Part shown: positions 3,411-48,836 of the stretch, piece by piece
Layout: each line of letters begins with the position of its first letter
Position numbering within the stretch: the first letter of the stretch is position 1
Source of the DNA: Proteromonas lacertae
Lineage: Eukaryota
Assembly (NCBI GenBank): GCA_002245135.1
Contig: NGBS01000914.1
Location: 1-48,836 of the forward strand
Direction: 5' to 3'
DNA: 48,836 nt
Position numbers and translations under genes: made by a program
Notes under the pieces: generated by a model
The model's database searches: none
Told to the model about the DNA's origin: nothing
The model's input: only the letters and a program-made list of their open reading frames with translations

Positions 3411-3539
3411 AAACTTTTTACCACTTTGTTTATTAATATTTCTTGAATTTAAAATTCTGGAAAGAAAATAACGGGATGTACGGGTTCTAGCCCTGTAGTA
3501 GTTCCAAATATTTTTGAATCTGAGGTAGAAATAAAAACA

Positions 3540-9275: not shown

Positions 9276-9369
9276 ATAGAAAGTATTTAATATTAACAGA
9301 AAATATGAAAATATGTATAGTATAGTATGATAAACATTTTCATTATAGAGTAAAACAACTAAAAATCAA

Positions 9370-13380: not shown

Positions 13381-13559
13381 ATGAAATTTATATAGGCTTG
13401 ATCATGGTTTGATAATGTATTTTGAATAATTTGATCAAAACAAATATAGAAAGTATTTAATATTAACAGAAAATATGAAAATATGTACAGTATAGTATGA
13501 TAAACATTTTCATTATTAACAAATAAAAGAATAATAGAGTAAAACAACTAATAATTGAA

Positions 13560-14288
13560 TTATTTAACATTCAAATATTCTTTTGATAGTTCTTTCTTTT
13601 CTTCTTCTTCTATCCCATCCAGCTCTATTATATCAATTGATGTAAATGTTTCTAAAAATGATTTTAATTCTGATTTATCTATATCTTCTTTTAATGTTAT
13701 TGATAAACTATCTAAATCTTCAAATACTTCTTTGTTTTCTTTCATTAATCTCAATTCTCTTTCATCTAATTCATTTCCTGATAAATTTATATTTGTCAAT
13801 GGTATATTATCTTTTAATCTTTCTATTAACATCATCAATCCTTTTTCACTCATTCCAATTTCTATATACAATACAATACAATACAGAATTTTAAATACTT
13901 GAGATGTTTAATGATGATATAGAATAAATAAATTTATCTAAATATTTACATATTATCTCTATTCCTTCATCTCCAATTTCATTATTATGAATTGAGATAT
14001 ATTCAACATTTTCTGTAAAAGAATCTGTTAATTCTTTTAATCCATTACAACTAATCTTGTTATTGGATATATCAAGATATTTATAATCAATCTGTTTTAT
14101 TAATGAAATATGAGAATCATTCACATTTAAATCTATTTCATTATAAACACACATAATATACTCGAAAAATAATAGTATTTATTGTCTTTTCTTTTCTTTT
14201 TAATACAATAATTCAAATAATATTCACATTCTTCTTTTCTCCATGATTTATTATTCATTTCTATAAATGGATATTCTTCTTTTTCTAA
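13560..14288 (-). pseudogene. 5'-truncated LRR copy (L2), last three exons only
   Basis: 13446-14288 is a direct repeat of 9276-10101. It begins abruptly at LEKEEYPF with no start codon. Confidence 0.8.
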
Positions 14289-14497
14289 ATATGGAATAAT
14301 CTTTTTTAAATATGGAAATGATTTTATACATTTTGAGAATGTATTTATTCATCAAATATTGGTTATAGAGACATTTTCATTAGATTATCAATAAACACAT
14401 AAAAAACACATAGTATATGAAAATTAAAATATAAAGTAAGAAGTGAATATAATACTAATTTATTTATAATATATATATATATTACAATATATATGAT

Positions 14498-17400: not shown

Positions 17401-17900
17401 GTGGTTGAGCTTGAATTATTTCAAGCTTTGCTGCTGGTAATGGACTGTTTGACTGTGGAATATCGAATTTTCTATAATAAATATAATTTTATATATATAC
17501 TGTGGATTGTAATATTGATTTGGAGGTTTTGGTGGAGGAGGATCATCATAATAAGGTTCTGGTGGTTTTACTATTGGTTTTTCATAATAAGGACTTCTTG
17601 AAGGGTTATTATTTTGAATTGGGGCTATTGGAGGTAGAACACCCACTTTCTGCTGTGGAGAATCTCCATGTAATCTATCATAACGATTCTTTTGCATCAT
17701 CCTTTCTTTCTCTTCAATTTGCCTTTTTAAAGCTAAAGGCTAAAAAATAAAAATCATACATCTACTATATGCTTCTTGTAATTCTCTTCTACGACGTTCA
17801 TTCTCTAAACCCTCTTTACCAAACATCAAAGGTGTTTCTGGAGTATTGCCTATTCATAATATATTATTATATGTTTGGATATACCTCTATATTCTGCCAT
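14498..17900 (-). CDS. Large coiled-coil protein with Pro-rich N-terminus and C-terminal WW/WW-like domains
   Basis: Exons join through short GT-AG introns from MAEYR. Long heptad-rich ORFs. Last exon YLFDENTGCYYFFNTETGSTSWDPP..GYTVCRTTEGRLYKRNDRTG. Confidence 0.75.
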
Positions 17901-18033
17901 ATAAATGTGTAACTAAAAAACGAATAACTGCCAATAAGAAACGAGTATATTTTTTATAAATTTTGAATTATTTTTTTCACACACCAATTTCAATTTCAAA
18001 TTATTTCTGGAAGGTTATTCTATAGAATAAATA

Positions 18034-18771
18034 ATGCCACATATTTATACCCCAGATGATATACTTCAATTGAATGCTCCAACTAAAGGTATTCATCTAT
18101 ATTTATCATTGATTTATAGATTATTTATGTTCTCCTGAAGATAATGTCTATGGAATAGAATTTTTAGAGTTTGAGATATACAACGATGAGACAAAAGAAA
18201 AATATTTCCAAATTGGTTGTCCAGACCAAAGATACGATTTGCCAAGTAGATTTTCACGTTGCGCTGATGATCTTAGAAAAATCTATTATGAGTTTCCATT
18301 AGGTGTATTAGAAGCACCAATAATTGCTACTAGGTATATATTATGTGATTATACTCTTTATAGATTAAAGTTCAAAGTTGGACCACAAGAAGTTCGTGAT
18401 TTTAGAATGATAGAAAGACATTATTTTAGAGATACTCTTTTAAAAAGTTATGATTTCCAATTTGTGTTTTGCATTCCAAATTCAGAGAATGAATGGGCTT
18501 CTTATTACAAAGTACCTCCTCTTAACAAAGATTTGCGTATTTTTATTTCTGTTTTATGAATATAGTTGATCAAATCTGTTTACATCCTAATGAGACACAG
18601 AGTGATAGTTTTTATTTTGTTGGTGATGAATTGATAATGCATACAAAAGCAATTTACACTTATTTTAGACCAAATGAAACAATCAGTCGATCTTTACCTG
18701 CTGAAGTTAAAGAATCAGAAAGAATTACAGCAAATGAAAGTAAGTTAGATGCTAGGCATCCTAGAAAGTAA
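18034..18771 (+). CDS. UNC119: UNC119 (PDE-delta family) lipidated-cargo carrier, 4 exons
   Basis: YLCSPEDNVYGIEFLEF, FRMIERHYFRDTLLKSYDF.F.FCIPNS.N, SDSFYFVGDELIMH.KA.Y.Y. Confidence 0.92.
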
Positions 18772-18838
18772 CTAACAACCGTAATTTATTCTTGTTTTTT
18801 TTAACATATAAATTCTTAAAATTACATAACGTATATAT

Positions 18839-19338
18839 TCATTTTTTATAATACTTTATTATAAACACCGAAGAATTCTGATCTAAACACACAAAAGTAT
18901 CTACTGGTGATTTAATGTCGTTAAATATTAATATTCCTTATTTCTACCTTGTCTTATCATAATAGTATGTTTGCCCATATTATATATAATCTCATATTTT
19001 TCTTCTTTCTTTGATTTTATTTCATTTATTACTTTTTCTCTAGCAAATTCACCGCCAGATCCATATAACACAAATTTATCTTTATTTATAGCAATACTAC
19101 AGGAAGAATCATGATTATAAATGAAATGACCAAAATAGTCTTTAATAGTAGAACAGCCAATGTATAATCCATTTTCATTGTGAGATATAAATATAAAATG
19201 ATGAATTCCATTTTCTAATACTATGCCCAAGTAGCAATGAGGTAAAGCAGCAACAGAACTGGATTTATTTAAATTTGTATTTCCATTATCAGTTAATACA
19301 ATATATATGTGCTTATTATATGAAAATTTTATATCCAT
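18839..19338 (-). CDS. SPRY/B30.2-like small protein; C-terminal strands out of frame
   Basis: LENGIHHF..GLYIGCS..IIYNM..HTIMI, then in another frame IFNDIKSPVDTFVCLDQNSSV. Confidence 0.45.
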
Positions 19339-19421
19339 TTTCTAAAATACTATTACAATTTTGATATATATCAAAAAACGCATATACAATATATTATTAT
19401 AATATTACAACTAAAAATCAA

Positions 19422-21949
19422 TTACACTACATTGCTAAACTCATTTAAAAACTCATTTTTCTTTTCTTCTTCTTCTATCCCATCCAACTTTACTATACCA
19501 ATTGATGTAAATGTTTCTAAAAATGATTTTAATTCTGATTTATCTATATCTTCTTTTAATGTTATTGATAATTTTTCTAAATCTTCAAATACTTCTTTGT
19601 TTTCTTTCATTAATCTCAATTCTCTTTCATCTAATTCATTTCCTGATAAATTTATATTTGTCAATGGTATATTATCTTTTAATCTTTCTATTAACATCAT
19701 CAATCCTTTTTCACTCATCACAATTTCTATATACAATACAATACAGAATTTTAAATACTTGAGATGTTTAATGATGAAAACATGAAGAATTTATCTAAAT
19801 ATTTACATATTATCTCTATTCCTTCATCTCCAATTTCATTATTATGAATTGAGATATATACAACATCTTCTGGAAAAGAATCTGTTAATTCTTTTAATCC
19901 ATTACAACTAATCTTGTTATTGGATAAAACAAGATATTTATAATCAATCTGTTTTATTAATGAAATATGAGAATCATTCACATTTAAATCTATTTCATTA
20001 TAAACACACATAATATACTCGAAAAATCATAACATTTTTCATAACTTCTTCTTTTCTTTTTAATACAATAATTCAAATAATATTCACATTCTTCTTTTCT
20101 CCATGTTTTATTATTCATTTTAATAAATGGATATTCTTCTTTTTCTAATGTTTTGGAACAAATTGATTTTAATCCATTCATTCTGATATTATTTCCACTT
20201 AAGTCTATTGAACAACAATAAGAAATTGAATCTATCTTATCAGCTAATAATATCACACTTTCATCATCTATTGAGATATTGGTTAAATCAATTTTATTTA
20301 AATAATTTTCTAATAACATGTCTAAATTGTTTATTAATAGCTTAAATCCAGCATTACCAATTGGATTATCTATTAAACAAATTAAAAACTACCATAAATA
20401 TACTTTGAATATTCAATTCATTAATAATATCACTTTCTTTCATATAATTCATCAAATATTCTATTCCTTCTGAATCTATATTATTATTACTTATATCAAC
20501 TGAATAGAAATTATCTATATCATCATCTTCTTCTTCATTATTTACTTTTAATTCGTTCATAAAGAATCTAGTCAACTCATCACCTTCATTATCATGAAGA
20601 ATTTTCTTTAAACCATCTAACAAATACTTTAATCCAATTGAAGATAATCCCATTTCTATTACAAATAATATCATAATAATAATAATACTTGAACAATTGA
20701 TTTTATTAATAATACCATCTTTTAATAAATGTAAATATGGAGATAATATTTTCATTCCTTCATCTCCTATCTCATTTCCATTCAATTGAAGTTCTTCAAG
20801 ACTTGTAAATGAAGATAAATTGTTAATCAGTATTTCTATACTTTTGTATGTTAGTTTATTATCTAAATAATATAAAAATATCAAATTATACTGTTCAAAT
20901 CTAATCTCCAGATTATTTCGAATTCATCTGATCTTAATGAAATGAATGATTTGAAAAAATCATCATCAATTTCACAATTACTCACATTTAATACATCATC
21001 ATTCATCAATCCAATTAATTCTTTATCAACTAACATTTCCATACTCTCTTTATTAAAATCAAATTTAATCTTTGAAATTGGAAATTTGGAGGATAAGGCT
21101 TTTAATCCTTTTGAATGAATATTCTTGTTTTCTGCAATACATATACTCTCAAGATTTGGATATTTGTATAACGCTTCAGATAATAATATCATTGATTCAT
21201 CATTTAAATTCATGTTAAAAAGATTTAATTCATTTTTGTCGTTGATCAGTAAATGTAAATATGGAAGTAATGATTTGAATCCTTTCACACCAATTCGATT
21301 AGCTATTTCAAAAGAATAAAAAGAAAATATATATACACTGAAGATCAACATATTTCAATTTCATCAATGGAGTTGATTTAACAAATGATTCAATGAAATG
21401 AGAAGTAAAATTACACCATGACAAATCCAATTTTTCTAAATTTGTTAACTGTGAAAAAAATGATCCAAATAAAGAATAATATTGAATTGGAATATCAATA
21501 TGATTATAGTGCTCTTCGAAAACATCATTATTCTTGGGATCCTTTCCAAATTTTAAGTTTGCTGGATTGATAAGTTTCAATATTCTCATGAAGTAATTCA
21601 ATCCTTCTTCACAATAACAAATACAACTTGAATGAATAATTATAACACCACCATAATATGAGTAAATATCAAATATCATTTTATCTAAGTAACACTCAGC
21701 ATCTTCTTTACAGTGGTGATTTATCTGAAATTTCAGCTTAGTTTGAATGGAATCATCATTTTTGTTTAACTTCATCAGCAGCAACTTTGATAATACTTCT
21801 TCATCAGGTTTAGAGTTGTAGCTTTCTACAAGTTGTTCAATTGCTTCTTCATTCTCTTTCGAATCTACTTCTATTCTTCTTCTTTTCTACATCGAATGAA
21901 TAAAAATATATACTACATAAATACTTGAAGGTTTATTAGAATTACTCAT
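19422..21949 (-). CDS. Kinase-less RNI-like LRR protein (copy L3), 8 exons
   Basis: Starts MSNSNKPSSIYV|KRRRIEV. It is homologous to L1 from the post-kinase domain (LVESYN.KP.E.VLS.LL.MK..LKFQI.H.CK) to the end. Confidence 0.8.
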
Positions 21950-22529
21950 AAAATTGTGTTTTGTTTCAAAAATATAGTCGTTATGATTGAGATATTTTTG
22001 TGTTATTCTGAATAAATACAACTAAATTACTAAAATGCTATTCCTGTGAATTGAAAATAATACAGAAATACTTCCATCAATTAAAATTGTAAAGTATTTT
22101 AAACATTTTGAAAATGTATTTGTTTCAGTTGAAGTTAAATCATTCACTAAAACTATAATCATTATATTTCATGCAATCTAAATTAATTTTTTTACATTAT
22201 TCATTCCTCCATCTTTCATTTAAACTAAGAATTCATAATTAAATATCACATTATATATACAATCACAAAAATGCATTCCAATCCCATTTTCATTTTTATC
22301 ATCAATTCTTTCTTCTATTTTCATATTATTTTATACTCAATAAACCAAATACTAATATCATTATTTTATCAAATTCTAAACAACAGAACAACAACAAGAA
22401 GCAGATAAAACAAAAAATGAAATATCAAGTTTTTTGTATTATTTTTTGATTTTTATACATTTACAGATTCTATTTAAGTAGATTAAAATCACTCTAATAA
22501 ACAAAAGCATATGAATATTTTCATTATTT

Positions 22530-24487
22530 TTATGTATCTATACTTCTTGGTAATAAACTGAATATTTCACATCCACTCATTTTCATAAACAACATATTCT
22601 CTTTATTTATTATTTCTATTCCACTTAAATCATTTAAATCACTTAATAAACATAAATAGTTATTATATAAACTTCGCTCTTTTGGACTTGCTATTCCTTT
22701 TCGAACTTTCTCATGCATTAATTTTAAACATTCATAAAATTTAGTATAGATTTCTTCGAATATATTCAACAAATATTCATTCTCATTTATACACTTTTTC
22801 ATTCTTTCATAATCTTTACTATTCAAATATTCTTTTACAAATCGATTATTTTCTACTATTTCTAACAGATTCTCACTTTTTAAATCGAAATTCAATGACT
22901 AATATATAATATATATATATAATAATATACACTTATAAAACTACACACTTCATTCTTCTCACTTAACCATTTCAACACATTATTCAACAAACTATCATTC
23001 ATTTTGTCTTTCAACATGATTCGTAATATGTTGTTTATTAAACCAATATTCATTTGGATATTTAAATCTAACCATACTTGACAATCATTGTTTATTGTAT
23101 TTTCTCTAGTTAAATCAAATAAATCTATAACAAAATAATAATAATATATAAATATATAAATACTTGAAAAAGAAAATGAACTTTTTATCTTCAATTCAAA
23201 TTCTTTCATTATTTCATTCAATTTTGGAAACTCTTTATATTCCATATATTTATTCATATTGTGATTCATTATTATATAAACTCTCAACATATCATTCTTA
23301 TCACCACTTTCTCCATTATTCTCATTTATTATTATATATTTCACAAATTCATCTATATTCTTCAAACTGTATAATAAATAATTATCACATATGTTTTGTA
23401 AAGCAGCTACACACTTCTGTTGTCTTGTTTTATTTGTTCCTTCTCTATATCCAAAGGATAATTTCATTATCATTATATCTTCTTTTATTTCTTTGGTTAT
23501 ATTTAAATGCTTTACAATATTATTATAATTCTTTTCATTGTTATTTTTTAGTTTCAAATTCATCTCAAATCCACTCTTCAATAATACTCCTATTTCATCT
23601 TTTATATGGATTTTACACATGCTATTATTATTTAAACTTATTCCTTTTAATTTATTATATTTTATTACATTTGGAATTATTTCATGTAAGTAGTTTAATC
23701 CATTTATATATTTATTCCAATATTTGGTTATTTCATTTCCTACTTTAGATATTGCACTTATTAAATACCATTCACTTTCTTTCTTTTTATTTCCTCCTTT
23801 TATATTCATTAACTCAGATTTGGTTGAATTAATTCCTGGAATATTCATTGTAACTATGTTATTAAATAATAATATATACATCTTCTTTTATTATTTGGAT
23901 TATTGTTATTGTTACTGTCTTTTAGAGACTTTATTCTGGATAATTCAGCATTTGAATGAATTGTTTCATTATCTATTTTTATATCTAAATACAATGTTAA
24001 CTTCATTAAATCTCGATTATTGTTATTATAAACACTTGTTATATATTCTGTAAATTCTTTTATATTTATTGGAATTTTCAATTCTATTCATTAGTATTAG
24101 ATTATATAATATACCTTCATTTTCACTACGGCTTATCACTTCATTTTCATTTTCACTCACACTATCTTCTTTTTCTTCCTCTTCATCTAATTTTATTAGT
24201 GTCACACTCTTCTTTATTGCTATTAGAATATCTTCATATGATTCTTCATTTAAAACTCCTTTATTAAACAAATCAAAGTATTTGAATATCTCATTCACTG
24301 TTTTATTTCCTAATTCACTCAATTTATTGTTCTTAAAGTATTCTAACACTTCTAACTCTTCTCTTTCTTCAGTATTTTCATTTATTGCATTCTTTAGTTT
24401 TTCTGCATCAATTCCTATTTCTTTCAATGAGCCTTCAATTCTCTGAAGTTTTTTTAAGGTAGAATTCTTTTGATCAATCAAACTCAT
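22530..24487 (-). CDS. Hypothetical helical protein, multi-exon
   Basis: Overlapping ORFs join through short GT-AG introns. An intact mirror copy lies at 38567-40520. No recognisable motif. Confidence 0.65.
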
Positions 24488-24623
24488 AAAAAAACGAAAA
24501 ACGAAACGAATATATTATTTGAATTATCAAACATTCTCTTCAAACTTATTGAAATATTTCAACCATTATTGCTATTAAAAGCAAAAGAAACAACAATATA
24601 AAAGTAATTACTGATAAAATATC

Positions 24624-30280: not shown

Positions 30281-32179
30281 TTACTTTACGTTTTTAGGTG
30301 AACTACAAAAAGTTTTCATGGTTCTAGCAGATATTGGATTATAAATCTTCGGTTTTGCGATACCAGGAGGTGTAGGATTAGCATAAACCAAATCTTCTCT
30401 TTCCTTCTCCCTCTCTTTATTTGCAGCAGCAGTATATCTTGGCGAAAGTATAGATTTAGCTATAAATGAACTATAGGGAGTTCTAAGGTCTTTAGTAGTT
30501 TCTAACTTACTTCTATCATAAAGTGGTGGTTGTGGTATATAACGAGGCGATGTAGGAGACTTGGGAGATTTTGATTCATTTATTGAAGCCTTACAACCTT
30601 TACTAATCTGTGGATTAATACTGATTGGAGAAGATATTGGATTTTTATCATAATTATTTTCTAAATCATTGATTAAACTGTTGGTTAGAATATCATTATA
30701 TTCATCATTATTTACTATGGAGGAATTTGTTGTATTGACTTCTAATGTTGATTTATATAATAATATCTCTTCATTATTTTTAGTGTTATCTGTGTTAATA
30801 TTATTATTATTAGTGCTTTCCATTTCTCTCCTTTTCTTCACTTTCCATTGATAATAAATATCATTTAATTCTTTCCATTTACTTATAGGAATCATTGTTA
30901 AATAACATTTCGGTTTATCTTTCCATAACAACACTTGATTTGGATATTTTGTATCATATGTACAATAAATATGTTTAAATTTTACATTGTATTTATTAAT
31001 ATGCCTAGCACCAATATAAACAGATATAACTAAACATCCATTGTTATTTAAAGCGATTGTTTGATAGTCATGTGTTGTACTTTTGATAAAACACATTCCA
31101 TTATCTCTAATCAAAATATAAATATAAATATATATAATAAATAATACTTTGGTTCAGGTGTGTCATTACTATAATATCCAATTCCAGGCAGTTTTTCATC
31201 TAATGTTTTAGTTATTTTCTCTAATTCATTTCCATCTCCATCAAATCTACAATCATTTCGATTCTCTGTAAGAAATTGTGTATTTATTGGTAAATCATAT
31301 TCACATGGTGAGGTTGTACCAGATCGTGGACTTTCTAATTTCTCTAAATCGATATGTTTTGAACCTTTTTGCTTTGTATAATCAAAAGCATCTTTACCAT
31401 ATAAATTCATTATTGCATTTCCATTTAGATTTGGATTTAATCCTGTAACTCTTCTTATTGGATAGATATTCTTACGAACTGTTACCTTTGGAGTTGTTCC
31501 TGATGAAGACGCGTTATTTTGTGTATTTCTATTCTGTTGGTTGATTTTAATTGGAGATTTCATTATATCACAAACACCTCCATTTTCTTTATCATTTTCT
31601 TTATCATTTTCATTTTCATTGGGTTTATGAACTCGTATTGATAATTTATCAGAGTCACTGTTATATAGTGAATGTATATTCAACTCATTTTCAGTTTGTG
31701 TAGATGTTCGACTATTATATGTGGATGAAAATGGTGAATCTACTTCATTCAAGTCTTCTCTACTTATACCACTCAATAATTGACTTTTTCTGACACATTC
31801 ACCATTTCCAAGTAAAGATGGACCTGGTCCTGTTATGCTTGTTCTAGATATTGAAAATGATATTCTTGACATTCTTCTAGGTGTGTTAGAAACTTTAAAA
31901 TCTTCATCTTCTTTTATTTTGGAATTTCTCTTTTCTACTAATGCTTTCAAACTTTTCCAATCTTTAGCACATTGATCAAGCTATTAACATAACAATATTT
32001 AAGAATACTTTTTGATAGTTACTCTCAAATCCATGAAATTCATCGAGTGACAAAGGATCAGCACTACTATTTTTTTGTTGCCTTGTCAGTGCAGCTTCTT
32101 TCTATCCTTATTATGATACAAAAAATACAAATTCACGAGAAAGTATAGAGGATCTTCTCTTATCCACTTCAGGTAACAT
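30281..32179 (-). CDS. Hypothetical Ser/Pro-rich protein with a central possibly PH-like domain, 4 exons
   Basis: MLPEVDKRRSS.. splices in frame into the 279-aa and 277-aa ORFs. The domain call is tentative. Confidence 0.7.
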
Positions 32180-32319: not shown

Positions 32320-34067
<1,748 letters not shown>

Positions 34068-34123: not shown

Positions 34124-35618
34124 TTAATCCATTGAAGCTTCTACACCTCTTAATATTAATCCCCAACCAATTAAACGGAAATGATTACCAATTTTTCTAC
34201 TTAAAGCAACTTTTTCACCTACTTCAGCACAAGACTATTAAAATAATAATAAAAAAAATGTAAATATACTGGAATAGCTAATGATAATTTAGCTACATCA
34301 CCTTCCTGACTTTTCTTGCCTTTCTTAGCAGTAGTAATGGATATAACACTCACAGAAGTACTAACAGAACCGATATTTACATTCAAAATTTCCTTAGATT
34401 TCAATCCTTCCACTTTCGCCTGTTTACCGTGTGCTTTTACTCCTAGTAATCTTTTCAATAGATAATAACTAATTTCTATTTCATTATATAGTGGAGGTAA
34501 ACTTCCTTTATGACCTAAGTTTCTTCCTACTAAGTAATCTGATCTAGCCAAGTATGGATCAATATTTGTACCAACACCTATTAAACCACCAGGTATAGCA
34601 ATATCTAATGAATTCTGTTCAGCAAATAAAGATACGATAGTTGTGTATATAGGAGATATTTTATTTTTTCCACTTGAATCTGTCCTTACAATTCCAGGTC
34701 GAATTTCTATTTCATCTCCTACTCGTAATACACCTTTCATTAAACTACCACCAGCTACTCCACCTTTCAAATCATCTATAGAGATACCTGGACGATTTAC
34801 ATCAAAACTACGGATTATTATTAATCGACCAGCACTTGTAAAATCACGAGGAGGAATTGGAATTGATTCAACAATATATTGACATACTACATCAATATTA
34901 TACTTTAGCACGGCGCTTATTGGAATTATTGGAGCACTGGCTGCTTCAGTACCATCTACAAATCGACGAATTGCATTATATTGTTCCATTGCAGCATCTT
35001 TTCGAACTAAATCGATTTTGTTTTGTAAAATTAATATGTGTTTTAATTTCATTATTTCTACAGCAGCTAAATGCTCGGATGTTTGTGGTTGTGGACAAGT
35101 TTCATTTGCTGCTATTAACAGTAAAGCAGCATCCATTACAGCTGCTCCATTCAACATTGTTGCCATATATACATCATGTCCAGGACAATCAACAAAGGAA
35201 ACATGTCTCTGCAAACGCATTGTACCTCCACATCCTTCTCTTGTGCATTTTGGATCTGTATTCATTGAACTGCCAAAAGATTTGTAACAAGAGGGTCTAT
35301 TTATCATATTTATTCATTTATACGGTGGACATTCTGGATTATCACATTTGAATATTTTAGCATTAGCATATCCTAACTTTATAGTGATATTTCTTTCTAA
35401 TTCTTTTCTGAAACGAATAGTCTATTTAAATATTATCGAATTTAATTTGTACTTGAACTCCAGTAATAGCTTTTACTACAGTTGACTTACCGTGAGCAAC
35501 ATGACCAATTGTTCCTGTTACACTAAAAATAAATTCATATACCAATGTTTATTGTTGCCTGCTTTGCCATTATCTCAGGAGTTAATGGACTGAGTTCTTT
35601 AATAGGTATATCTGCCAT
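34124..35618 (-). CDS. EIF2S3: Translation initiation factor eIF2 gamma, paralog A (4 introns)
   Basis: [69 protein letters not shown]. Confidence 0.96.
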
Positions 35619-35747: not shown

Positions 35748-36035
35748 ATGTCTCATATCCTTTGATATTAAACTCTTAAAAAGTTTACCTTAATTTATTT
35801 AAGTGGCAATAGAAGAGAAGTAGACAGAGCTAGAGCTGCAGCAAGAGCTGAAAGAACACATCCAAAAGAAGGAAGAGGTGGTTCAGTATATGAAAGAAAT
35901 GAATCGTATTATTTATTGATATATATTTTTAGAGACGCAGCAGCTTTAAGAGCCAAGATTGAAAAGAAGAAGGCTATGGAAGCTGCTGGTGGTGCTTCTG
36001 ATGATGGTAAAGGAAAGGGAAAGGGCAAAAAGTAG
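35748..36035 (+). CDS. SERF: SERF/4F5-family small protein (3 exons; absent from ORF track)
   Basis: Spliced MSRGNRREVDRARAAARAE..ERNESDAAALRAKIEKKKA.. matches the MxRGNQRE..R / DA..MR.K signature. Introns at 35755-35802 and 35906-35932. Confidence 0.85.
35755..35802 (+). other. U12-type (minor spliceosome) intron, 48 nt, AT-AA termini
   Basis: 5' end ATATCCTTT and branch-site-like TTACCTTAAT at 35785-35794. Removal yields ATG TCT C|GT GGC AAT (MSRGN). Confidence 0.85.
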
Positions 36036-36096: not shown

Positions 36097-36884
36097 TTAT
36101 TTTAATTTTCTGGTGTTGCTAAATCCACATAATTCCATCTGTCGAGTCACTACGTTTAATGATATATTTACTAAACCTGAACACTTCACTCTTGTCGATT
36201 CTCTTCCTCTGCTATCAGCTACAAAATTAGCATTATAAAACTATTTCAATTACAAAACTTATATATATTATATACCTCTGTTCTTTCTCCTGTTAACCAT
36301 GCAATAAACTCTCTTAATTTAGAAGACGAGATTGGAGTATATAAATAAACATCCTGATGATATAATCCTGGTTGAGTAGGAATTAACATTGATCCATAAC
36401 CTAATACTATATCATTTCCTCTTGAATCCAGTGCATAAACCTAACACTTAGTAAAAATCATTATTTTAAATATACGGAGAGAATGATTCTAGGCCAACCG
36501 AATGGATTTGTTGATCGAAATGTTATATCTATAGGGAAATTCCATACAAATCTACTATCTTCACTACTTGTTGTTCTTCTTGAATATTGGCTTATTCCAT
36601 CTTCTAAACCCTATTTATAGTGCAATATAATGCTAATCATATGTCATACTGTCAAAACTTGCCAATCTTGACCATATACATAACTGTATTTACAATTAAT
36701 ACAATTTGAATCGTATAGCTAATTTTACATTTTAATAAATTCAAATATATACTTTCTTACCATAATTGACTTGTCCATTCACAATTACTTGAAAATGTGA
36801 ACGAATTCCATCTCTATATATTCGTTAATTGTTAAAAATATACTGCTCCACACCAAGCTGTGGTTTAGCTGCTAATGTTGCCAT
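36097..36884 (-). CDS. B9D1: B9 domain protein 1 (MKS/transition-zone module), 6 exons; absent from ORF track
   Basis: [71 protein letters not shown]. Confidence 0.92.
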
Positions 36885-36971: not shown

Positions 36972-38410
36972 ATGTCATCGATGCATGATTTAAGTGAACT
37001 AAATCCACTTTCACCAGATATTATGGCTAAACAAGCAACTATTAATATTGGTATAATAGAAATAGATTTCATTTATAGGAACAATCGGCCATGTATCTCA
37101 CGGTAAGTCAACTGTAGTAAAAGCTATTACTGGAGTTCAAGTACAAATTAAATTCGATAATATTTAAATAGACTATTCGTTTCAGAAAAGAATTAGAAAG
37201 AAATATCACTATAAAGTTAGGATATGCTAATGCTAAAATATTCAAATGTGATAATCCAGAATGTCCACCGTATAAATGAATAAATATGATAAATAGACCC
37301 TCTTGTTACAAATCTTTTGGCAGTTCAATGAATACAGATCCAAAATGCACAAGAGAAGGATGTGGAGGTACAATGCGTTTGCAGAGACATGTTTCCTTTG
37401 TTGATTGTCCCGGACACGAGATATATATGGCAACAATGTTGAATGGAGCAGCTGTAATGGATGCTGCTTTACTGTTAATAGCAGCAAATGAAACTTGTCC
37501 ACAACCACAAACATCCGAGCATTTAGCTGCTGTAGAAATAATGAAATTAAAACACATATTAATTTTACAAAACAAAATCGATTTAGTTCGAAAAGATGCT
37601 GCAATGGAACAATATAATGCAATTCGTCGATTTGTAGATGGTACTGAAGCAGCCAGTGCTCCAATAATTCCAATAAGCGCCGTGCTAAAGTATAATATTG
37701 ATGTAGTATGTCAATATATTGTTGAATCAATTCCAATTCCTCCTCGTGATTTTACAAGTGCTGGTCGATTAATAATAATCCGTAGTTTTGATGTAAATCG
37801 TCCAGGTATCTCTATAGATGATTTGAAAGGTGGAGTAGCTGGTGGTAGTTTAATGAAAGGTGTATTACGAGTAGGAGATGAAATAGAAATTCGACCTGGA
37901 AGAGTTGAAATTAATAACAAAGGAGGATTTACCATTATTCCAATTTATACAAAAATAATATCATTATTTGCTGAACAGAATTCATTAGATATTGCTATAC
38001 CTGGTGGTTTAATAGGTGTTGGTACAAATATTGATCCAAGTCTGTCAATTAATGATAGATTGGTTGGGAAAAACTTAGGAATAGTTGGAACATTGCCAAA
38101 AATATATACTGAAATAGAAATCAGTTATTATTTGCTGAGGAGAGTGTTAGGTGTGAAAGATAGTGAAAATAATTCAAAAAAGAACAAAGTTCAAGGTTTC
38201 AAAAATAGAGAATTTCTAACATTGAATATTGGTTGTGTAACTAGTACTGCTACAATTATAACCTTTGATAAATCAAAAGTTAGAATAAAACTACAAAAAC
38301 CTGTGTGCGCTGAAATTGGTGAAAAAGTAGCTATTAATCGTTATTTAAACAAGCATTGGAGATTAATTGGTTGGGGTTTGTTATTACGAGGTAATGAAGT
38401 GGTTATTTAG
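36972..38410 (+). CDS. EIF2S3: Translation initiation factor eIF2 gamma, paralog B (3 introns)
   Basis: Same family motifs as paralog A but with GHVSHGKS and DCPGHEI. It ends [13 protein letters not shown]. Confidence 0.96.
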
Positions 38411-38566
38411 TTAATTAAGGATAATAATTTAATTGTATTAATTGTAACAATGTTATATTGTTGTTTCTTTTGCTTTTAATAGCAATAATGGTTGAAATAT
38501 TTCAATAAGTTTGAAGAGAATGTTTGATAATTCAAATAATATATTCGTTTCGTTTTTCGTTTTTTT

Positions 38567-40520
38567 ATGAGTTTGACTGATCAAAAGAATTCTACCTTAA
38601 AAAAACTTCAGAGAATTGAAGGCTCATTGAAAGAAATAGGAATTGATGCAGAAAAACTAAAGAATGCAATAAATGAAAATACTGAAGAAAGAGAAGAGTT
38701 AGAAGTGTTAGAATACTTTAAGAACAATAAATTGAGTGAATTAGGAAATAAAACAGTGAATGAGATATTCAAATACTTTGATTTGTTTAATAAAGGAGTT
38801 TTAAATGAAGAATCATATGAAGATATTCTAATAGCAATAAAGAAGAGTGTGACACTAATAAAATTAGATGAAGAGGAAGAAAAAGAAGATAGTGTGAGTG
38901 AAAATGAAAATGAAGTGATAAGCCGTAGTGAAAATGAAGGTATATTATATAATCTAATACTAATGAATAGAATTGAAATTTCCAATAAATATAAAAGAAT
39001 TTACAGAATATATAACAAGTGTTTATAATAACAATAATCGAGATTTAATGAAGTTAACATTGTATTTAGATATAAAAATAGATAATGAAACAATTCATTC
39101 AAATGCTGAATCATCCAGAATAAAGTCTCTAAAAGACAGTAACAATAACAATAATCCAAATAATAAAAGAAGATGTATATATTATTATTTAATAACATAG
39201 TTACAATGAATATTCCAGGAATTAATTCAACCAAATCTGAGTTAATGAATATAAAAGGAGGAAATAAAAAGAAAGAAAGTGAATGGTATTTAATAAGTGC
39301 AATATCTAAAGTAGGAAATGAAATAACCAAATATTGGAATAAATATATAAATGGATTAAACTACTTACATGAAATAATTCCAAATGTAATAAAATATAAT
39401 AAATTAAAAGGAATAAGTTTAAATAATAATAACATGTGTAAAATCCATATAAAAGATGAAATAGGAGTATTATTGAAGAGTGGATTTGAGATGAATTTGA
39501 AACTAAAAAATAACAATGAAAAGAATTATAACAATATTGTAAAGCATTTAAATATAACCAAAGAAATAAAAGAAGATATAATGATAATGAAATTATCCTT
39601 TGGATATAGAGAAGGAACAAATAAAACAAGACAACAGAAGTGTGTAGCTGCTTTACAAAACATATGTGATAATTATTTATTATACAGTTTGAAGAATATA
39701 GATGAATTTGTGAAATATATAATAATAAATGAGAATAATGGAGAAAGTGGTGATAAGAATGATATGTTGAGAGTTTATATAATAATGAATCATAATATGA
39801 ATGAATATATGGAATATAAAGAGTTTCCAAAATTGAATGAAATAATGAAAGAATTTGAATTGAAGATAAAAAGTTCATTTTCTTTTTCAAGTATTTATAT
39901 ATTTATATATTATTATTATTTTGTTATAGATTTATTTGATTTAACTAGAGAAAATACAATAAACAATGATTGTCAAGTATGGTTAGATTTAAATATCCAA
40001 ATGAATATTGGTTTAATAAACAACATATTACGAATCATGTTGAAAGACAAAATGAATGATAGTTTGTTGAATAATGTGTTGAAATGGTTAAGTGAGAAGA
40101 ATGAAGTGTGTAGTTTTATAAGTGTATATTATTATATATATTATATATTAGTCATTGAATTTCGATTTAAAAAGTGAGAATCTGTTAGAAATAGTAGAAA
40201 ATAATCGATTTGTAAAAGAATATTTGAATAGTAAAGATTATGAAAGAATGAAAAAGTGTATAAATGAGAATGAATATTTGTTGAATATATTCGAAGAAAT
40301 CTATACTAAATTTTATGAATGTTTAAAATTAATGCATGAGAAAGTTCGAAAAGGAATAGCAAGTCCAAAAGAGCGAAGTTTATATAATAACTATTTATGT
40401 TTATTAAGTGATTTAAATGATTTAAGTGGAATAGAAATAATAAATAAAGAGAATATGTTGTTTATGAAAATGAGTGGATGTGAAATATTCAGTTTATTAC
40501 CAAGAAGTATAGATACATAA
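38567..40520 (+). CDS. Hypothetical helical protein, duplicate of 22530-24487
   Basis: Near-identical mirror copy with only a few substitutions. Confidence 0.65.
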
Positions 40521-41036
40521 AAATAATGAAAATATTCATATGCTTTTGTTTATTAGAGTGATTTTAATCTACTTAAATAGAATCTGTAAATGTATAAAAA
40601 TCAAAAAATAATACAAAAAACTTGATATTTCATTTTTTGTTTTATCTGCTTCTTGTTGTTGTTCTGTTGTTTAGAATTTGATAAAAAAATGACATTAGTA
40701 TTTGGTTTATTGAGTATAAAATAATATGAAAATAGAAGAAAGAATTGATTATAAAAATGAAATAGAGAAAATGGGATTGGAATGAATAATGTAAAAAAAA
40801 TAATTTAGATTGCATGAAATATAATGATTATAGTTTTAGTGAATGATTTAACTTCAACTGAAACAAATACATTTTCAAAATGTTTAAAATACTTTCCAAT
40901 TTTAATTGATGGAACTATTTCTGTATTATTTTCAATTCACAGGAATAGCATTTTAGTAATTTAGTTGTATTTATTCAGAATAACACAAAAATATCTCAAT
41001 CATAACGACTATATTTTTGAAACAAAACACAATTTT

Positions 41037-43552
41037 ATGAGTAATTCTAATAAACCTTCAAGTATTTATGCAGTATATATTTTTATTAATTCGATGTAGA
41101 AAAGAAGAAGAATAGAAGTAGATTCGAAAGAGAATGAAGAAGCAATTGAACAACTTGTAGAAAGCTACAACTCTAAACCTGATGAAGAAGTATTATCAAA
41201 GTTGCTGATGATGAAGTTAAACAAAAATGATGATTCCATTCAAACTAAGCTGAAATTTCAGATAAATCACCACTGTAAAGAAGATGCTGAGTGTTACTTA
41301 GATAAAATGATATTTGATATTTACTCATATTATGGTGGTGTTATAATTATTCATTCAAGTTGTATTTGTTATTGTGAAGAAGGATTGAATTACTTCATGA
41401 GAATATTGAAACTTATTAATCCAGCAAACTTAAAATTTGGAAATGATCCCAAGAATAATGATGTTTTCGAAGAGCACTATAATCATATTGATATTCCAAT
41501 TCAATATTATTCTTTATTTGGATCATTTTTTTCACAGTTAACAAATTTAGAAAAATTGGATTTGTCATGGTGTAATTTTACTTCTCATTTCATTGAATCA
41601 TTTGTTAAATCAATTCCATTGATGAAATTGAAATATGTTGATCTTCAGTGTATATATTTACTTTTTATTCTTTTGAAATAGCTAATCGAATTGGTGTGAA
41701 AGGATTCAAATCATTACTTCCCTATTTACATTTACTGATCAACGACAAAAATGAATTAAATCTTTTTAACATGAATTTAAATGATGAATCAATGATATTA
41801 TTATCTGAAGAGTTATACAAATATCCAAATCCTGAGAGTATATGTATTGCAGAAAACAAGAATATTCATTCAAAAGGATTAAAAGCCTTATCCTCCAAAT
41901 TTCCAATTTCAAAGATTAAATTTGATTTTAATAAAGAGAGTATGGAAATGTTAGTTGATAAAGAATTAATTGGATTGATGAATGATGATGTATTAAATGT
42001 GAGTAATTGTGAAATTGATGATGATTTTTTCAAATCATTCATTTCATTAAGATCAGATGAATTCGAAATAATCTGGAGGTTAGATTTGAACAGTATAATT
42101 TGATATTTTTATATTATTTAGATAATAAACTAACATACAAAAGTATAGAAATACTGATTAACAATTTATCTTCATTTACAAGTCTTGAAGAACTTCAATT
42201 GAATGGAAATGAGATAGGAGATGAAGGAATGAAAATATTATCTCCACATTTACATTTATTAAAAGATGGTATTATTAATAAAATCAATTGTTCAAGTATT
42301 ATTATTATTATGATATTATTTGTAATAGAAATGGGATTATCTTCAATTGGATTAAAGTATTTGTTAGATGGTTTAAAGAAAATTCCTCATGATAATGAAG
42401 GTGATGAGTTGACTAGATTCTTTATGAACGAATTAAAAGTAAATAATGAAGAAGAAGATGATGAGATAGATAATTTCTATTCAGTTGATATAAGTAATAA
42501 CAATATAGATTCAGAAGGAATAGAATATTTGATGAATTATGTGAAAGAAAATGATAATATTAATAGATTGAATATTCAAAGTATATTTATGGTAATTTTT
42601 AATTTGTTTAATAGATAATCCAATTGGTAATGCTGGATTTAAGCTATTAATAAACAATTTGAATGTTGTCAATAAGTGGGATAGAATGAATTTGAGTAAT
42701 ATCTCAATAGATGATGAAAGTGTGATATTATTAGCTGATAAGATAGATTCAATTTCTAATTGCAACACAATAAACTTAAATGGAAATAATATCAGAATGA
42801 ATGGATTAAAATCAATTTGTTCCAAAACATTAGAAAAAGAAGAATATCCATTTATAGAAATGAAATGTTCATCATGGAGAAAAGAAGAATGTGAATATTA
42901 TTTGAATTATTGTATTAAAAAGAAAAGAGAAGACAATAAATACTATTATTTTTCGAGTATATTATGTGTGTTTATAATGAAATAGATTTAAATGTGAATG
43001 ATTCTCATATTTCATTAATAAAACAGATTGATTATGAAGAACTTGTTTTATCCAATAACAAGATTAGTTGTAATGGATTGAAAGAATTAACAGATTCTTT
43101 TCCAGAAAATGTTAAATATATTTCAATTCATAATAATGAAATTGGAGATGAAGGAATAGAGATAATATGTAAATATTTAGATAAATTCTTCATGTTTTCA
43201 TCATTAAACATCTCAAGTATTTAAAATTCTGTATTGTATTGTATATAGAAATTGTGATGAGTGAAAAAGGATTGATGATGTTAATAGAAAGATTAAAAGA
43301 TAATATACCATTGACAAATATAAATTTATCAGGAAATGAATTAGATGAAAGAGAATTGAGATTAATGAAAGAAAACAAAGAAGTATTTGAAGATTTAGAT
43401 AGTTTATCAATAACATTAAAAGAAGATATAGATAAATCAGAATTAAAATCATTTTTAGAAACATTTACATCAATTGGTATAGTAAAGTTGGATGGAGTAT
43501 CAGAAGAAGAAAAAAAAAAGAGTTTTTAAATGAGTTTAGCAATGTAGTGTAA
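41037..43552 (+). CDS. Kinase-less RNI-like LRR protein (copy L4)
   Basis: Mirror of L3 with variant patches in the 3' half. A poly-A frameshift at ~43510-43520 may be a sequence error. Confidence 0.8.
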
Positions 43553-43636
43553 TTGATTTTTAGTTGTAATATTATAATAATATATTGTATATGCGTTTTT
43601 TTGATATATATCAAAATTGTAACAGCATTTTAGAAA

Positions 43637-44136
43637 ATGGATATAAAATTTTCATATAATAAGCACATATATATTGTATTAACTGATAATGGAAATACAA
43701 TTTTAAATAAATCCAGTTCTGTTGCTACTTTACCTCATTGCCACTTGGGCATAGTATTAGAAAATGGAATTCATCATTTTATATTTATATCTCACAATGA
43801 AAATGGATTATACATTGGCTGTTCTACTATTAAAGACTATTTTGGTCATTTCATTTATAATCATGATTCTTCCTGTAGTATTGCTATAAATAAAGATAAA
43901 TTTGTGTTATATGGATCTGGCGGTGAATTTGCTAGAGAAAAAGTAATAAATGAAATAAAATCAAAGAAAGAAGAGAAATATGAGATTATATATAATATGG
44001 GCAAACATACTATTATGATAAGACAAGGTAGAAATAAGGAATATTAATATTTAACGACATTAAATCACCAGTAGATCCTTTTGTGTGTTTAGATCAGAAT
44101 TCTTCAGTGTCTATAATAAAGTATTATAAAGAATGA
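43637..44136 (+). CDS. SPRY/B30.2-like small protein, duplicate
   Basis: Mirror of 18839-19338 with the same frame break. Downstream frame IFNDIKSPVDPFVCL. Confidence 0.45.
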
Positions 44137-44203
44137 ATATATACGTTATGTAATTTTAAGAATTTATATGTTAAAAAAAACAAGAATAAATTACGGTTGT
44201 TAG

Positions 44204-44941
44204 TTACTTTCTAGGATGTCTAGCATCTAACTTACTTTCATTTGCTGTAATTCTTTCTGATTCTTTAACTTCAGCAGGTAAAGATCGACTGATTGTTTCA
44301 TTTGGTCTAAAATAAGTGTAAATTGCTTTTGTATGCATTATCAATTCATCACCAACAAAATAAAAACTATCACTCTGTGTCTCATTAGGATGTAAACAGA
44401 TTTGATCAACTATATTCATAAAACAGAAATAAAAATACGCAAATCTTTGTTAAGAGGAGGTACTTTGTAATAAGAAGCCCATTCATTCTCTGAATTTGGA
44501 ATGCAAAACACAAATTGGAAATCATAACTTTTTAAAAGAGTATCTCTAAAATAATGTCTTTCTATCATTCTAAAATCACGAACTTCTTGTGGTCCAACTT
44601 TGAACTTTAATCTATAAAGAGTATAATCACATAATATATACCTAGTAGCAATTATTGGTGCTTCTAATACACCTAATGGAAACTCATAATAGATTTTTCT
44701 AAGATCATCAGCGCAACGTGAAAATCTACTTGGCAAATCGTATCTTTGGTCTGGACAACCAATTTGGAAATATTTTTCTTTTGTCTCATCGTTGTATATC
44801 TCAAACTCTAAAAATTCTATTCCATAGACATTATCTTCAGGAGAACATAAATAATCTATAAATCAATGATAAATATAGATGAATACCTTTAGTTGGAGCA
44901 TTCAATTGAAGTATATCATCTGGGGTATAAATATGTGGCAT
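44204..44941 (-). CDS. UNC119: UNC119 duplicate
   Basis: ORF-track peptides are identical to the left copy. Confidence 0.92.
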
Positions 44942-45074
44942 TATTTATTCTATAGAATAACCTTCCAGAAATAATTTGAAATTGAAATTGGTGTGTGAAA
45001 AAAATAATTCAAAATTTATAAAAAATATACTCGTTTCTTATTGGCAGTTTTTCGTTTTTTAGTTACACATTTAT

Positions 45075-48000
45075 ATGGCAGAATATAGAGGTATATCCAA
45101 ACATATAATAATATATTATGAATAGGCAATACTCCAGAAACACCTTTGATGTTTGGTAAAGAGGGTTTAGAGAATGAACGTCGTAGAAGAGAATTACAAG
45201 AAGCATATAGTAGATGTATGATTTTTATTTTTTAGCCTTTAGCTTTAAAAAGGCAAATTGAAGAGAAAGAAAGGATGATGCAAAAGAATCGTTATGATAG
45301 ATTACATGGAGATTCTCCACAGCAGAAAGTAGGTGTTCTACCTCCAATAGCCCCAATTCAAAATAATAACCCTTCAAGAAGTCCTTATTATGAAAAACCA
45401 GAAATCCAACCACCAGAACCTTATTATGATGATCCTCCTCCACCAAAACCTCCAAATCAATATTATAATCCACAGTATATATATAAAATTATATTTATTA
45501 TAGAAAATTCGATATTCCACAGTCAAACAGTCCATTACCAGCAGCAAAGCTTGAAATAGTTCAAGCTCGACCACCTGTGCCGCAATATTACCCGCCTGCA
45601 TCTCAACAAAATGACAAATCATTCATTTTGTTAAAGAGTCAGCTGGATCAATATAATCAAAATCAAAGAGAGAATAGTAACTTAATAAATGAGCTAAAAG
45701 GCAGATTATACCAATTAGAGAGTGAATTGAAACATGAAAAAGAGTGGCGAAAGAATTATTCGAAATATAATGGTGATATAAAAGATGTAATAAGTGGAAT
45801 TCAAAATAAAACTGAACACTTTGAAATGGCTCGATCCAATGATGTAGAACGATTAATTAGTCGAATCAATTTAGTGGAAAAATCAGTGTATGATGTAAAA
45901 ATGAGTTTTGAGAATATGAATCAAAATTATATAACACGAATGAATGAAATTGAAATAAAGTTAAAGATATTTCCATTAATACAAATGATTTAAATAACAA
46001 ACTCTTATTGGTTAATAATAATATTGATAGATTGAATATAGATTTAAATGGTGTAAAGAATAATATAATTGATTTAGAAAGTAAAGTAAGAGAAGCAGTA
46101 AATGGTATAGTAAATGATCAAATGGAACAGAAAGTAGTTATTGATGCTACAATACAGAATCAAAGTGTTGGAGGAATTCCTTTGAATAATATAAATCCAT
46201 TAATTGATGGTAGTAATGGTGGTGCTATGGATTTTAATAAATGGAGTGGTGTTATACAGAAATTAAAATTGTTAGAAAGTGGATTGAGTGATCAAAAGAA
46301 AAGTAGAAAATTATTAGATGATTCTATTCGAAGAGTATATATATATATATAATATTATATTATTATTTTTAATGTTTGTTAATAGATTGATAATAAATAT
46401 TCTGATGTATTATCCACAATTAAAGGTCAAAATGACATACTTCAAACATACGAAAATCATGTTCAAGATACAATAGATAAAGGATTTGGTGGATATGATA
46501 TAAAGCTAAATAACTTAGCAAAGAACTTGGAAATACGATTAAATAAACACAGTCAAGATATAGAAGACTTTAAGCAAGAAATATTAGAGATTGAAACAAA
46601 ATTAGAGAATTATATAGTCACAGAAATGAAGAATATAAATAATAAAGATAATGAAATAACCAATCAATTAGTGAGTCTTTCTAGTAGGTTACAAGAGATT
46701 AGTAATATGAAAATGGAAGGAATTGATAGTGGAAATAGTAAAAATAGTGCAATCTATAAAGAGTTGAGTGATTTGAATAAAGAATTGAATGATGTAAAAG
46801 ATGAAATTGAAGAGATGAAAAATAGTGATTTAGCTTCAGCTAGAAGTAATAATAATAATATCAATGATGAAGTGTCTAATAAATTAATAAGAAGAATTCA
46901 AAATGATTTAGACAATCATAATTGTAGAATAAAAGCAATAGAAAGTGATTATATAACTAGACCACAATTAGAATTAAGTGGTTATAGCTCAACTAATAAT
47001 AATGGTGGTTTAGCTAATGATGAAGTTTGAAATTAGAAGCAATAGATAATTTAAGAAATGAAGTTGTAGCACAAGCTGTTATTAATGATTTGTACAATCA
47101 AACTAAACTTTGAATTATATGAAAAAACATGTGACAGATGTAATAAATAAGAATTTGAGAAGAGTGAGTGATTTAGATAAGAAGATAAAGAATTGTCAAC
47201 AAAGCATTGATTCATTAAGATATGAATGTGATGAAAGACATCGAAATATTGAAAATGAGATAATAAACGAAGCTGAAATCAACAAGAACAGTATTGAAAG
47301 AAATGAAGAAAAGATGGAGAAAATGCACAATGAAATGAGTCAATTTAGTGAAGAAAATGCCAAAACACGAGACAAATAATTAATAACAAGATCGATAATC
47401 AAAATGAAAGATTAGAGAAAGTATTGAATGATATTCGTGAAAAATAATGAATTGAAAGATTATGTAGAAAAGAAGATAAATGATATTTATGAATTAATTG
47501 AAAGTAAACAAATAGCCAATGAAGCGATGGAAAGAGCTTTAGTAGAAGAAAACTATAACAAATTGAAAGATGAAACATTCCACTATTATAGTGACTATCA
47601 CAATAAATTGGAAATACAAAGAATGATGTAAAATTGAAGTTGGAACAATATAAGACAGTAACAGATGAAAGTATATATATATATATATAATTTTATATAA
47701 TTGAAAATAGAAATGAAGCGTATAGAAGATAATAATAACCGAAGACTTAGTGACTGGAAAATGATATTAATGAGTTGAAAGTAACAGTAACAAATACAAA
47801 GAAGGAGGTAAATCAACAATTAGATAATAATAAGAAAGATATGAATTATATAAACAAATCAATGGATAGCTTGAGTTTAACTACAACAATGGATAATTTG
47901 AAATGGCAAATAGAATTTGATAATTTATACAACTTCGTAGATCATGCGAATATGAGTGAGATTCGAACGAATTATCATTCATTACAATCTTACTTAGATA

Positions 48001-48459
48001 CATCGATCAAATCATTTGTGAATAGATTCAATAAATTAGAAAGTGAATTAGATAATCGTTTGATCGCTATAAAAGATTATGACAAAACAAATATATGAGC
48101 GAGATTTATTAATCGAAAGAAATAGTAGTAACCCTAAACCATCTAAAATGACAATAGTAACTGGAATGATGCTTTAAGACCTCCAACTGCTGATTCAACT
48201 AATATATATATTATTATTAATGATTTTAATATTTGTTTAGGAAGCAATCTATCAATACTTATTTGATGAGAATACAGGTTGTTATTACTTCTTTAACACT
48301 GAAACAGGAAGTACGAGTTGGGATCCTCCTGAAGATCTGGATATAATATATAGAGAAGGTCAAAAATTAGATGGTGGTTATACTGTTTGTAGAACAACAG
48401 AAGGTCGTTTGTATAAGAGAAATGATAGAACTGGAAGTGTTGAAGCTTTGTATAGTTAA
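45075..48459 (+). pseudogene. Coiled-coil/WW gene duplicate with many frameshifts (pseudogene or unpolished sequence)
   Basis: Small indels relative to the intact left copy near 45955, 47022, 47105, 47125, 47360, 47612, 47756, 48077 and 48163, and loss of a splice donor near 48203. Confidence 0.6.
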
Positions 48460-48650
48460 ATCATATATATTGTAATATATATATATATATTATAAATAAA
48501 TTAGTATTATATTCACTTCTTACTTTTATTTTAATTTTCATATACTATGTGTTTTTTATGTGTTTATTGATAATCTAATGAAAATGTCTCTATAACCAAT
48601 ATTGATGAATAAATACATTCTCAAAATGTATAAAATCATTTCCATATTTA

Positions 48651-48836
48651 AAAAAAAGAAGAATATCCATTTATTAAATGAATAATCATCATGGAGAAAA
48701 GAAGAATGTGAATATTATTTGAATTATTGTATTAAAAAGAAAAGAAGAAGAAAAAATTATATTTTTCGAGTATATTATGTGTGTTTATAATGAAATAGAT
48801 TTAAATGTGAATGATTCTCATATTTCATTAATAAAA
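48651..48836 (+). pseudogene. 5'-truncated LRR fragment (L5), mirror of L2, cut by window end
   Basis: KEEYPF..WRKEECEYYLNYCIKKKR, followed by an intron and LNVNDSHISLIK. Confidence 0.75.

What the first reader, a model, noticed from the sequence alone, without database searches (positions are those of the whole stretch)
35755..35802. 48-nt U12-type intron with rare AT-AA ends in SERF
Seen: perfect minor donor ATATCCTTT and branch-like TACCTTAAT ending only 8 nt before the 3' end. The conserved MSRGN frame is restored by ending at AA; the overlapping AG one base later gives a frameshift. Established: U12 introns are normally AT-AC or GT-AG and AT-AA is a rare variant. Short minor introns are known from Blastocystis. 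Inference: an active minor spliceosome with distance-defined 3' site choice, which gene predictors will miss.
Basis: partly seen in the sequence, partly recalled or inferred. Interest (0 to 1): 0.7.

Follow-up and report, generated by a model that had tools for sequence, protein, structure and literature searches.

The report
Short AT-AA minor intron in SERF
A small conserved gene of an AT-rich protist, probably a flagellated relative of Blastocystis, is interrupted by 48 bases that carry the signals of the rare "minor" intron class and end in AA instead of the usual AC; the piece is likely removed by the minor splicing machinery, and such ends are a known variant.

Summary
Confirmed. 35755-35802 is a 48-nt interruption of SERF with a U12 donor (ATATCCTTT), a branch motif matching 11 of 12 consensus positions, and an AA end; only that end gives M-S-R-G-N. 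A Blastocystis-type contig has a GT-AG intron at the same junction. An unnamed close relative has an in-register 48-nt insert that cannot start GT or end in G, so an indel error is unlikely; a C-to-A base error is not excluded. No RNA run was listed and no genome is held, so splicing and snRNAs are untested. AT-AA is the commonest non-canonical minor end in animals and plants and frequent in Physarum. The 8-nt gap lies within the human AT-AA range (7-17 nt), and 2 of 10 listed human cases also have AA|G. Distance alone does not pick AA over AG. Gene content fits a Proteromonas-like flagellate better than Blastocystis. Of residual interest: this site is U12 here but U2 in Blastocystis, direction unknown. 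The scan noted AT-AA minor introns in Rozella before (unchecked), not this one.

The parts
35748..35754 (+). SERF coding exon 1 (Met-Ser and first base of Arg)
   Evidence: same 7-nt coding exon in L003; P0001 also begins M-S-H-I-L when read through
35755..35802 (+). Intron 1: 48 nt, phase 1, U12-type, AT-AA ends, 17% GC
   Evidence: in-register 48-nt insert in P0001
35755..35763 (+). U12-type 5' splice site ATATCCTTT
   Evidence: only RTATCCTTT in the window; 0 of 30 modelled GT-AG introns have TATCC at +2
35784..35795 (+). U12-type branch sequence; branch adenosine predicted at 35792 or 35793
   Evidence: 11 of 12 positions fit the consensus described in PMC1557818 (my count); distances
35801..35803 (+). 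3' end AA (35801-35802, in frame) and overlapping AG (35802-35803, frameshift)
35803..35905 (+). SERF exon 2, 42% GC
   Evidence: Pfam SERF-like_N E=0.008, below the curated cutoff; ten best Atlas family hits share the SERF family at 0.88 or less; P0001 87% identical
35906..35932 (+). Intron 2: 27 nt, phase 2, ordinary GT-AG
   Evidence: 31-nt GT-AG intron at the same site in L003
35933..36035 (+). SERF exon 3, ending in a genomic TAG

Best explanation
The 48 bases at 35755-35802 are a U12-type intron with AT-AA ends in a SERF gene, likely excised by a minor spliceosome to give a 70-residue protein. Shown: the signals, the frame and the orthologous junction. Inferred from the established mechanism: U11 and then U6atac read ATATCCTTT; U12 pairs with the CCTTAA branch motif and bulges A35792 or A35793; in the second step the intron's first A pairs with the last nucleotide, and an A-starting intron accepts C best, A tolerably and G poorly, so AA at 35802 would win over the overlapping AG inside a narrow window 9-11 nt from the branch. 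Some mis-splicing to the AG, giving an 8-residue dead product, is expected. The AA end most likely arose from AC by one substitution. The organism is probably a flagellated relative of Blastocystis (Proteromonas-like).
For: Donor and branch at the site fixed by orthology, joint chance about 2.6e-7. L003 has a 33-nt GT-AG intron at the same junction and shares intron 2. P0001 reads through a 16-codon insert, 9 of 16 residues identical to the window's read-through; its codons allow only AT or AC at the start and AA, AC, GA or GC at the end. Exon 2 has no other sensible in-frame start: the next in-frame ATG is 35976 in exon 3. The four flanking genes model without frameshifts (RIO2, two eIF2gamma, B9) and nearby duplicated arms differ by 10 substitutions and 1 indel in 2,314 nt. 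AT-AA is 823 against 16,044 AT-AC in animals and 690 against 5,903 in plants, far above a base-error rate of at most about 0.2% (my arithmetic: roughly 70:1 for a real A). AT-AG is reported as disfavoured (PMC3584512). Human AT-AA introns have 7-17 nt gaps and 2 of 10 have AA|G. Minor-spliceosome SNRNP25 domains are tabulated for Proteromonas and tortoise Blastocystis.
Against: No transcript or raw read was seen. P0001's DNA could not be fetched, so its end may be AC and the AA is known from one assembly only. Both window ends carry many indels between repeat copies (28 in the last 1.8 kb), so the sequence is not error-free, and repeat arms may have been polished together. The AG at 35803 is closer to the 11-13 nt optimum. 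No snRNA gene lies in the window and no second U12 candidate with a branch motif in a gene was found there. The lineage is not established: eIF2gamma sits on a long branch with four unnamed relatives only.
Confidence: 0.85

Rival explanations
1. The intron is an ordinary AT-AC minor intron and the last A is a base error of the assembly (or a lost G hides a 49-nt AT-AG intron).
For: AT-AC is about 9 to 20 times commoner than AT-AA; 196 of 253 Blastocystis ST1 minor introns are AT-AC; indels crowd the window ends; P0001 allows AC.
Against: P0001 keeps the 48-nt register and cannot end in G, which argues against the lost-G version. Central genes are intact; substitution differences near the locus are 10 in 2,314 nt at most.
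Confidence: 0.06
2. The minor spliceosome mostly uses the AG at 35802-35803, so this allele gives mainly a frameshifted message and the gene is crippled or down-regulated.
For: AG lies 10-11 nt from the branch A; AT-AG minor introns exist (658 in animals; 29% of non-canonical ones in Physarum); U12 3' site choice is reported as error-prone.
Against: Exons 2 and 3 are intact and 87% identical to P0001, which implies productive splicing; human ABHD18 (a curated NM record) uses AA before G.
Confidence: 0.04
3. The intron is a relic: the minor spliceosome is gone or bypassed and the major spliceosome removes it.
For: U2-dependent AT-AC introns exist; no minor snRNA was seen.
Against: The donor is a full U12 match and unlike the local GTA donors (26 of 30 modelled introns start GTA, none with TATCC); motif-compatible residues persist in P0001.
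Confidence: 0.03
4. SERF starts further upstream and a 140- or 152-nt GT-AG intron ending at 35803 is used.
For: Four such in-frame routes exist from ATGs at 35617 and 35647.
Against: They destroy M-S-R; the ATGs overlap or lie within 30 nt of the opposite-strand eIF2gamma start at 35618; local introns are 27-50 nt; P0001 and L003 keep the 7-nt exon.
Confidence: 0.02

Closest known systems
A-type U12 introns with AT-AA ends in animals and plants (human MSH3, PIGB, RASGRP4, ABHD18, PROX2; PMC8280824 supplement rows, PMC1557818 Tables 2-3, PMC10639083 section 30 and Table S1)
   Same: ATATCCT donor, CCTTRA branch, AA end; gap after the branch 9-mer 7-17 nt (PIGB 8, as here); AA followed by exonic G in 2 of 10 listed rows; AC/AA switching between relatives is documented (MSH3 human/mouse).
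   Different: Only 48 nt long; host gene SERF is not in the human minor-intron tables searched (one file not searched); no transcript support here.
Short U12 introns of Blastocystis ST1 (PMC5608401 passages; PMC10639083 passages)
   Same: Compact genome with ~30-nt major introns and slightly longer minor introns (median 39 nt), mostly A-type.
   Different: Described as AT-AC (77%); phase 0 enriched, this one is phase 1. The SERF intron at this site is U2 GT-AG in Blastocystis-type L003. The window has B9, PDE-delta and PGAP1-like genes, scored 0 in all eight Blastocystis of PMC12129017 Table S5.
Non-canonical U12 introns of Physarum polycephalum (bioRxiv 10.1101/2020.10.12.336362, section 15)
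   Same: A protist in which AT-AA minor introns are supported by RNA data (27% of 1,014 non-canonical ones).
   Different: Physarum has an expanded system with an altered branch motif; here the branch is canonical and only one U12 intron was found in 49 kb.

Membership tests
U12-type (minor) intron | 5' splice site RTATCCTY | tested here: met
   ATATCCTTT at 35755
U12-type (minor) intron | Conserved branch sequence close to the 3' end | tested here: met
   11 of 12 positions of the consensus in PMC1557818; 8-nt gap, within the 7-17 nt of ten human AT-AA rows
U12-type (minor) intron | Removal restores a conserved reading frame at an orthologous junction | tested here: met
U12-type (minor) intron | Excised in transcripts at the predicted ends | not testable with these tools
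U12-type (minor) intron | U11, U12, U4atac, U6atac and minor-specific proteins in the same genome | not testable with these tools
   no genome held; none in the window; SNRNP25 and RBM41/RNPC3 domains tabulated for the likely relatives
AT-AA subtype | Terminal A is real in the DNA | tested here: inconclusive
   indel error disfavoured by P0001; substitution error unlikely but not excluded
U2-type (major) intron | GT or GC start, AG end, local GTA...AG pattern | tested here: not met
SERF / small EDRK-rich factor | N-terminal M[ST]RGN[QR]R motif and SERF-like_N domain | tested here: met
   Pfam E=0.008, below cutoff, on the unspliced frame; Atlas hits; alignment search returns SERF proteins
Genus Blastocystis | Loss of B9, PDE-delta and PGAP1-like domains (0 in eight isolates, PMC12129017 Table S5) | tested here: not met
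   window has B9-C2 (E=5e-13), GMP_PDE_delta (E=2e-28) and a weak PGAP1 hit (E=7e-4, below cutoff); table rows

The most novel reading that the evidence does not exclude
This SERF intron is a major-to-minor switch (or a new minor intron) in a flagellated relative of Blastocystis: the same junction holds a U2 GT-AG intron in Blastocystis-type sequences, human SERF genes are absent from the minor-intron tables searched, and the lineage may be one in which short AT-AA minor introns are common. That would be a rare case of minor-intron gain and would bear on the open suggestion that Blastocystis minor introns are recent.
Probability: 0.12. Interest if true: 0.65.

Novelty: new member of a known kind. 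Interest (0 to 1): 0.3.

Why it matters
As it stands it is one more AT-AA minor intron, useful for annotation (a read-through prediction, P0001, shows what a caller blind to it produces) and as a marker that the minor spliceosome likely survives in this lineage. Its value is comparative: one junction that is U12 here and U2 in Blastocystis-type DNA. PMC10639083 leaves open whether Blastocystis minor introns are ancient or recently gained and asks for more genomes from the clade; a genome-wide intron comparison with this organism would test that directly.

Tried and rejected
No whole genome is held. No RNA holder was listed, so no reads were laid. Rfam: 0 hits at gathering, 2 chance-level miRNA hits at E up to 1. 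No special RNA structure over the intron (z = 0.0). A donor-branch-exon pattern gave 45 viral loci, none SERF on reading the translations. The eIF2gamma tree did not place the organism (one search used a wrong frame and was discarded; 4 long or fused hits were left out; no named Blastocystis or other named stramenopile was among the 120 hits listed). Atlas search of ORF 30281-31153 gave no usable hit. Of 30 introns modelled by my script in 7 genes I regard 4 (those starting GTT) as mis-calls; the other 26 are 27-50 nt, three of them being the matching copies in the second eIF2gamma gene. Literature: no paper held SERF2 + minor intron + U12; none of the 20 listed of 781 mentions Proteromonas or Opalina; one search gave one irrelevant paper. 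Dietrich 2001, Dietrich 2005 and Levine and Durbin 2001 are not held and are cited only through PMC3584512. Rejected: tortoise-type Blastocystis as the source (gene content), a ciliate (PMC13685798 passages report no minor snRNAs in ciliates; not tested further), upstream GT-AG routes.

Full report
Observation. The window is 25.5% GC. At 35748 an ATG is followed by four bases and then by 35755-35802, a 48-nt, 17%-GC stretch that starts ATATCCTTT, carries a branch motif at 35784-35795 and ends in AA. Of 45 possible ends scanned, only 35802 yields M-S-R-G-N; the AG one base later gives 8 residues, and the unspliced frame stops after 5. A second, 27-nt GT-AG intron (35906-35932) completes a 70-residue SERF (Pfam SERF-like_N E=0.008, below cutoff; Atlas). 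The donor alone is no more than chance (1 seen, 2.58 expected). Donor plus branch occurs once against 0.06 expected, and at a site fixed in advance the joint probability is about 2.6e-7.

The junction is fixed by relatives. A metagenome scan confirmed 3 SERF loci among 594 stretches. L001 and L002 are intronless. L003, whose protein is close to the named Blastocystis ST4 and ST7 proteins P0129 and P0134 and which has the TGTTTGTT element downstream, carries a 33-nt GT-AG intron after the same seven coding bases and a 31-nt intron at the position of intron 2. Its donor has no U12 character. Five Blastocystis-type read-through proteins (P0124, P0126, P0128, P0129, P0131) show G-G-N-Q, which means their intron 1 ends in G. 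P0001, an unnamed Logan protein 87% identical to the window, reads straight through both introns. Its first insert is 16 codons, the same as here, with 9 of 16 residues identical; its codons permit only AT or AC at the start and AA, AC, GA or GC at the end. So a second organism has a non-GT, non-AG 48-nt intron in register. Its DNA could not be obtained, so AC and AA remain open there. P0136, also similar in exon 2, lacks intron 1.

Is the A real? The window holds long inverted repeats. Indels between copies are few near the locus (1 indel, 10 substitutions in 2,314 nt) and many at both window ends (28 in the last 1.8 kb; 17 in 937-5402), which looks like a long-read contig with weaker ends (inference). 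The genes on either side model without frameshifts. A lost G is disfavoured by P0001. [quoted passage not shown]

Mechanism. The recognition steps follow established knowledge of the minor spliceosome (PMC3584512, passages): U11/U12 bind donor and branch together, either of two adenosines can branch, the optimum branch-to-end distance is 11-13 nt, and AT-AG is disfavoured. Here the branch A is 9-10 nt from the AA and 10-11 nt from the AG, so distance narrows the window but does not by itself choose AA; the preference of an A-starting intron against a terminal G has to do the rest (inferred; the pairing of first and last intron bases is recalled, not read). PMC1557818 (passages and Tables 2-3) reports AT-AN as competent and lists AC/AA switches between human and mouse. 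In the human table of PMC8280824 (supplement rows), the ten U12 AT-AA rows have 7, 8, 9, 10, 10, 11, 11, 12, 14 and 17 nt after the branch 9-mer by my hand count (four rows rest on XM or XR models only); two are followed by G. The window's 8 nt and AA|G are therefore within known range. [quoted passage not shown]

Organism. Major introns are short and AT-rich: 26 of 30 modelled introns start GTA and are 27-50 nt; none has TATCC. This recalls Blastocystis, whose ST1 has 346 or 253 minor introns, median 39 nt, 77% AT-AC (PMC5608401 passages; PMC10639083 passages). But the window encodes a B9 protein, a PDE-delta/UNC119 protein in two copies, a weak PGAP1-like protein and two eIF2gamma genes. In PMC12129017 Table S5 (supplement rows) these domains count 0, 0, 0 and 0-2 in eight Blastocystis isolates and 6, 3, 4 and 4 in Proteromonas lacertae, whose GC is 27% (section 5). 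The same table lists SNRNP25 domains for Proteromonas and the tortoise isolates. A flagellated relative of Blastocystis is my best reading, at about 65-70%; most of these genes are widespread, and the eIF2gamma tree did not place the organism.

Comparison and novelty. AT-AA is the commonest non-canonical minor end in animals and plants (PMC10639083 section 30) and is frequent in Physarum (section 15). This is a new member of a known kind. I found no paper on a minor intron in SERF or in Proteromonas (searches; the library lacks most subscription papers, and supplements of preprints were closed). SERF is absent from the human minor-intron tables searched, while three control genes are present (one of 13 files not searched), and from the supplement of PMC11347168 (which may not list gene names). 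The type switch against Blastocystis is thus unpolarised. Minor-to-major conversion is the usual direction and de novo gain has little support, so I favour conversion in Blastocystis, and give the reverse 0.12. An unchecked note of this scan reports mostly AA-ending short minor introns in Rozella; it prompted the idea that AA might be common here and was not tested.

Verdict. Observation confirmed; U12-type AT-AA intron at 0.85; interest 0.3.

Noticed in passing
window 34124-35618 (-) and 36972-38410 (+): Two divergently oriented eIF2gamma paralogs flank SERF and the B9 gene. Their middles, introns included, are almost identical (4 differences in 799 nt) while both ends are diverged, which suggests gene conversion; unnamed relative P0004 is 94% identical to the left copy and 76% to the right.
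   Followed up: partly
window 14095-24601 and 38453-48836: About 10.5 kb inverted duplication (UNC119/PDE-delta, LRR and coiled-coil genes); the right copy gathers indels toward the window end, probably assembly errors.
   Followed up: partly
window 5631-8288: A 243-aa ORF (6472-7203, -) between 815-nt inverted repeats at 99% identity; no Pfam hit, but its Cys/His and D-G-T-F motifs recall Mutator-type transposases (recalled, untested).
   Followed up: no
window 937-5402: Another inverted repeat of about 1.5 kb holding broken kinase-like fragments, with 17 indels between the copies.
   Followed up: no
window 36097-36884 (-): Five-intron B9-domain gene (ciliary transition zone), used as evidence against Blastocystis.
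   Followed up: yes
window 32320-34010 (-): RIO2 kinase with a long acidic tail and a CCHC zinc knuckle near its C terminus.
   Followed up: no
window 9300-12563 (-): Protein kinase domain followed by leucine-rich repeats that recur at 13446-14288, 19384-21508 and 41478-43567.
   Followed up: no
window 30281-31980 (-): Two long ORFs of about 290 aa with no Pfam hit; the one tested in the Atlas gave no usable hit.
   Followed up: partly
L003 1762-1792: Blastocystis-type SERF intron 2 ends in AAG with a purine-rich 3' end, and several predicted proteins of this group mis-read it.
   Followed up: no
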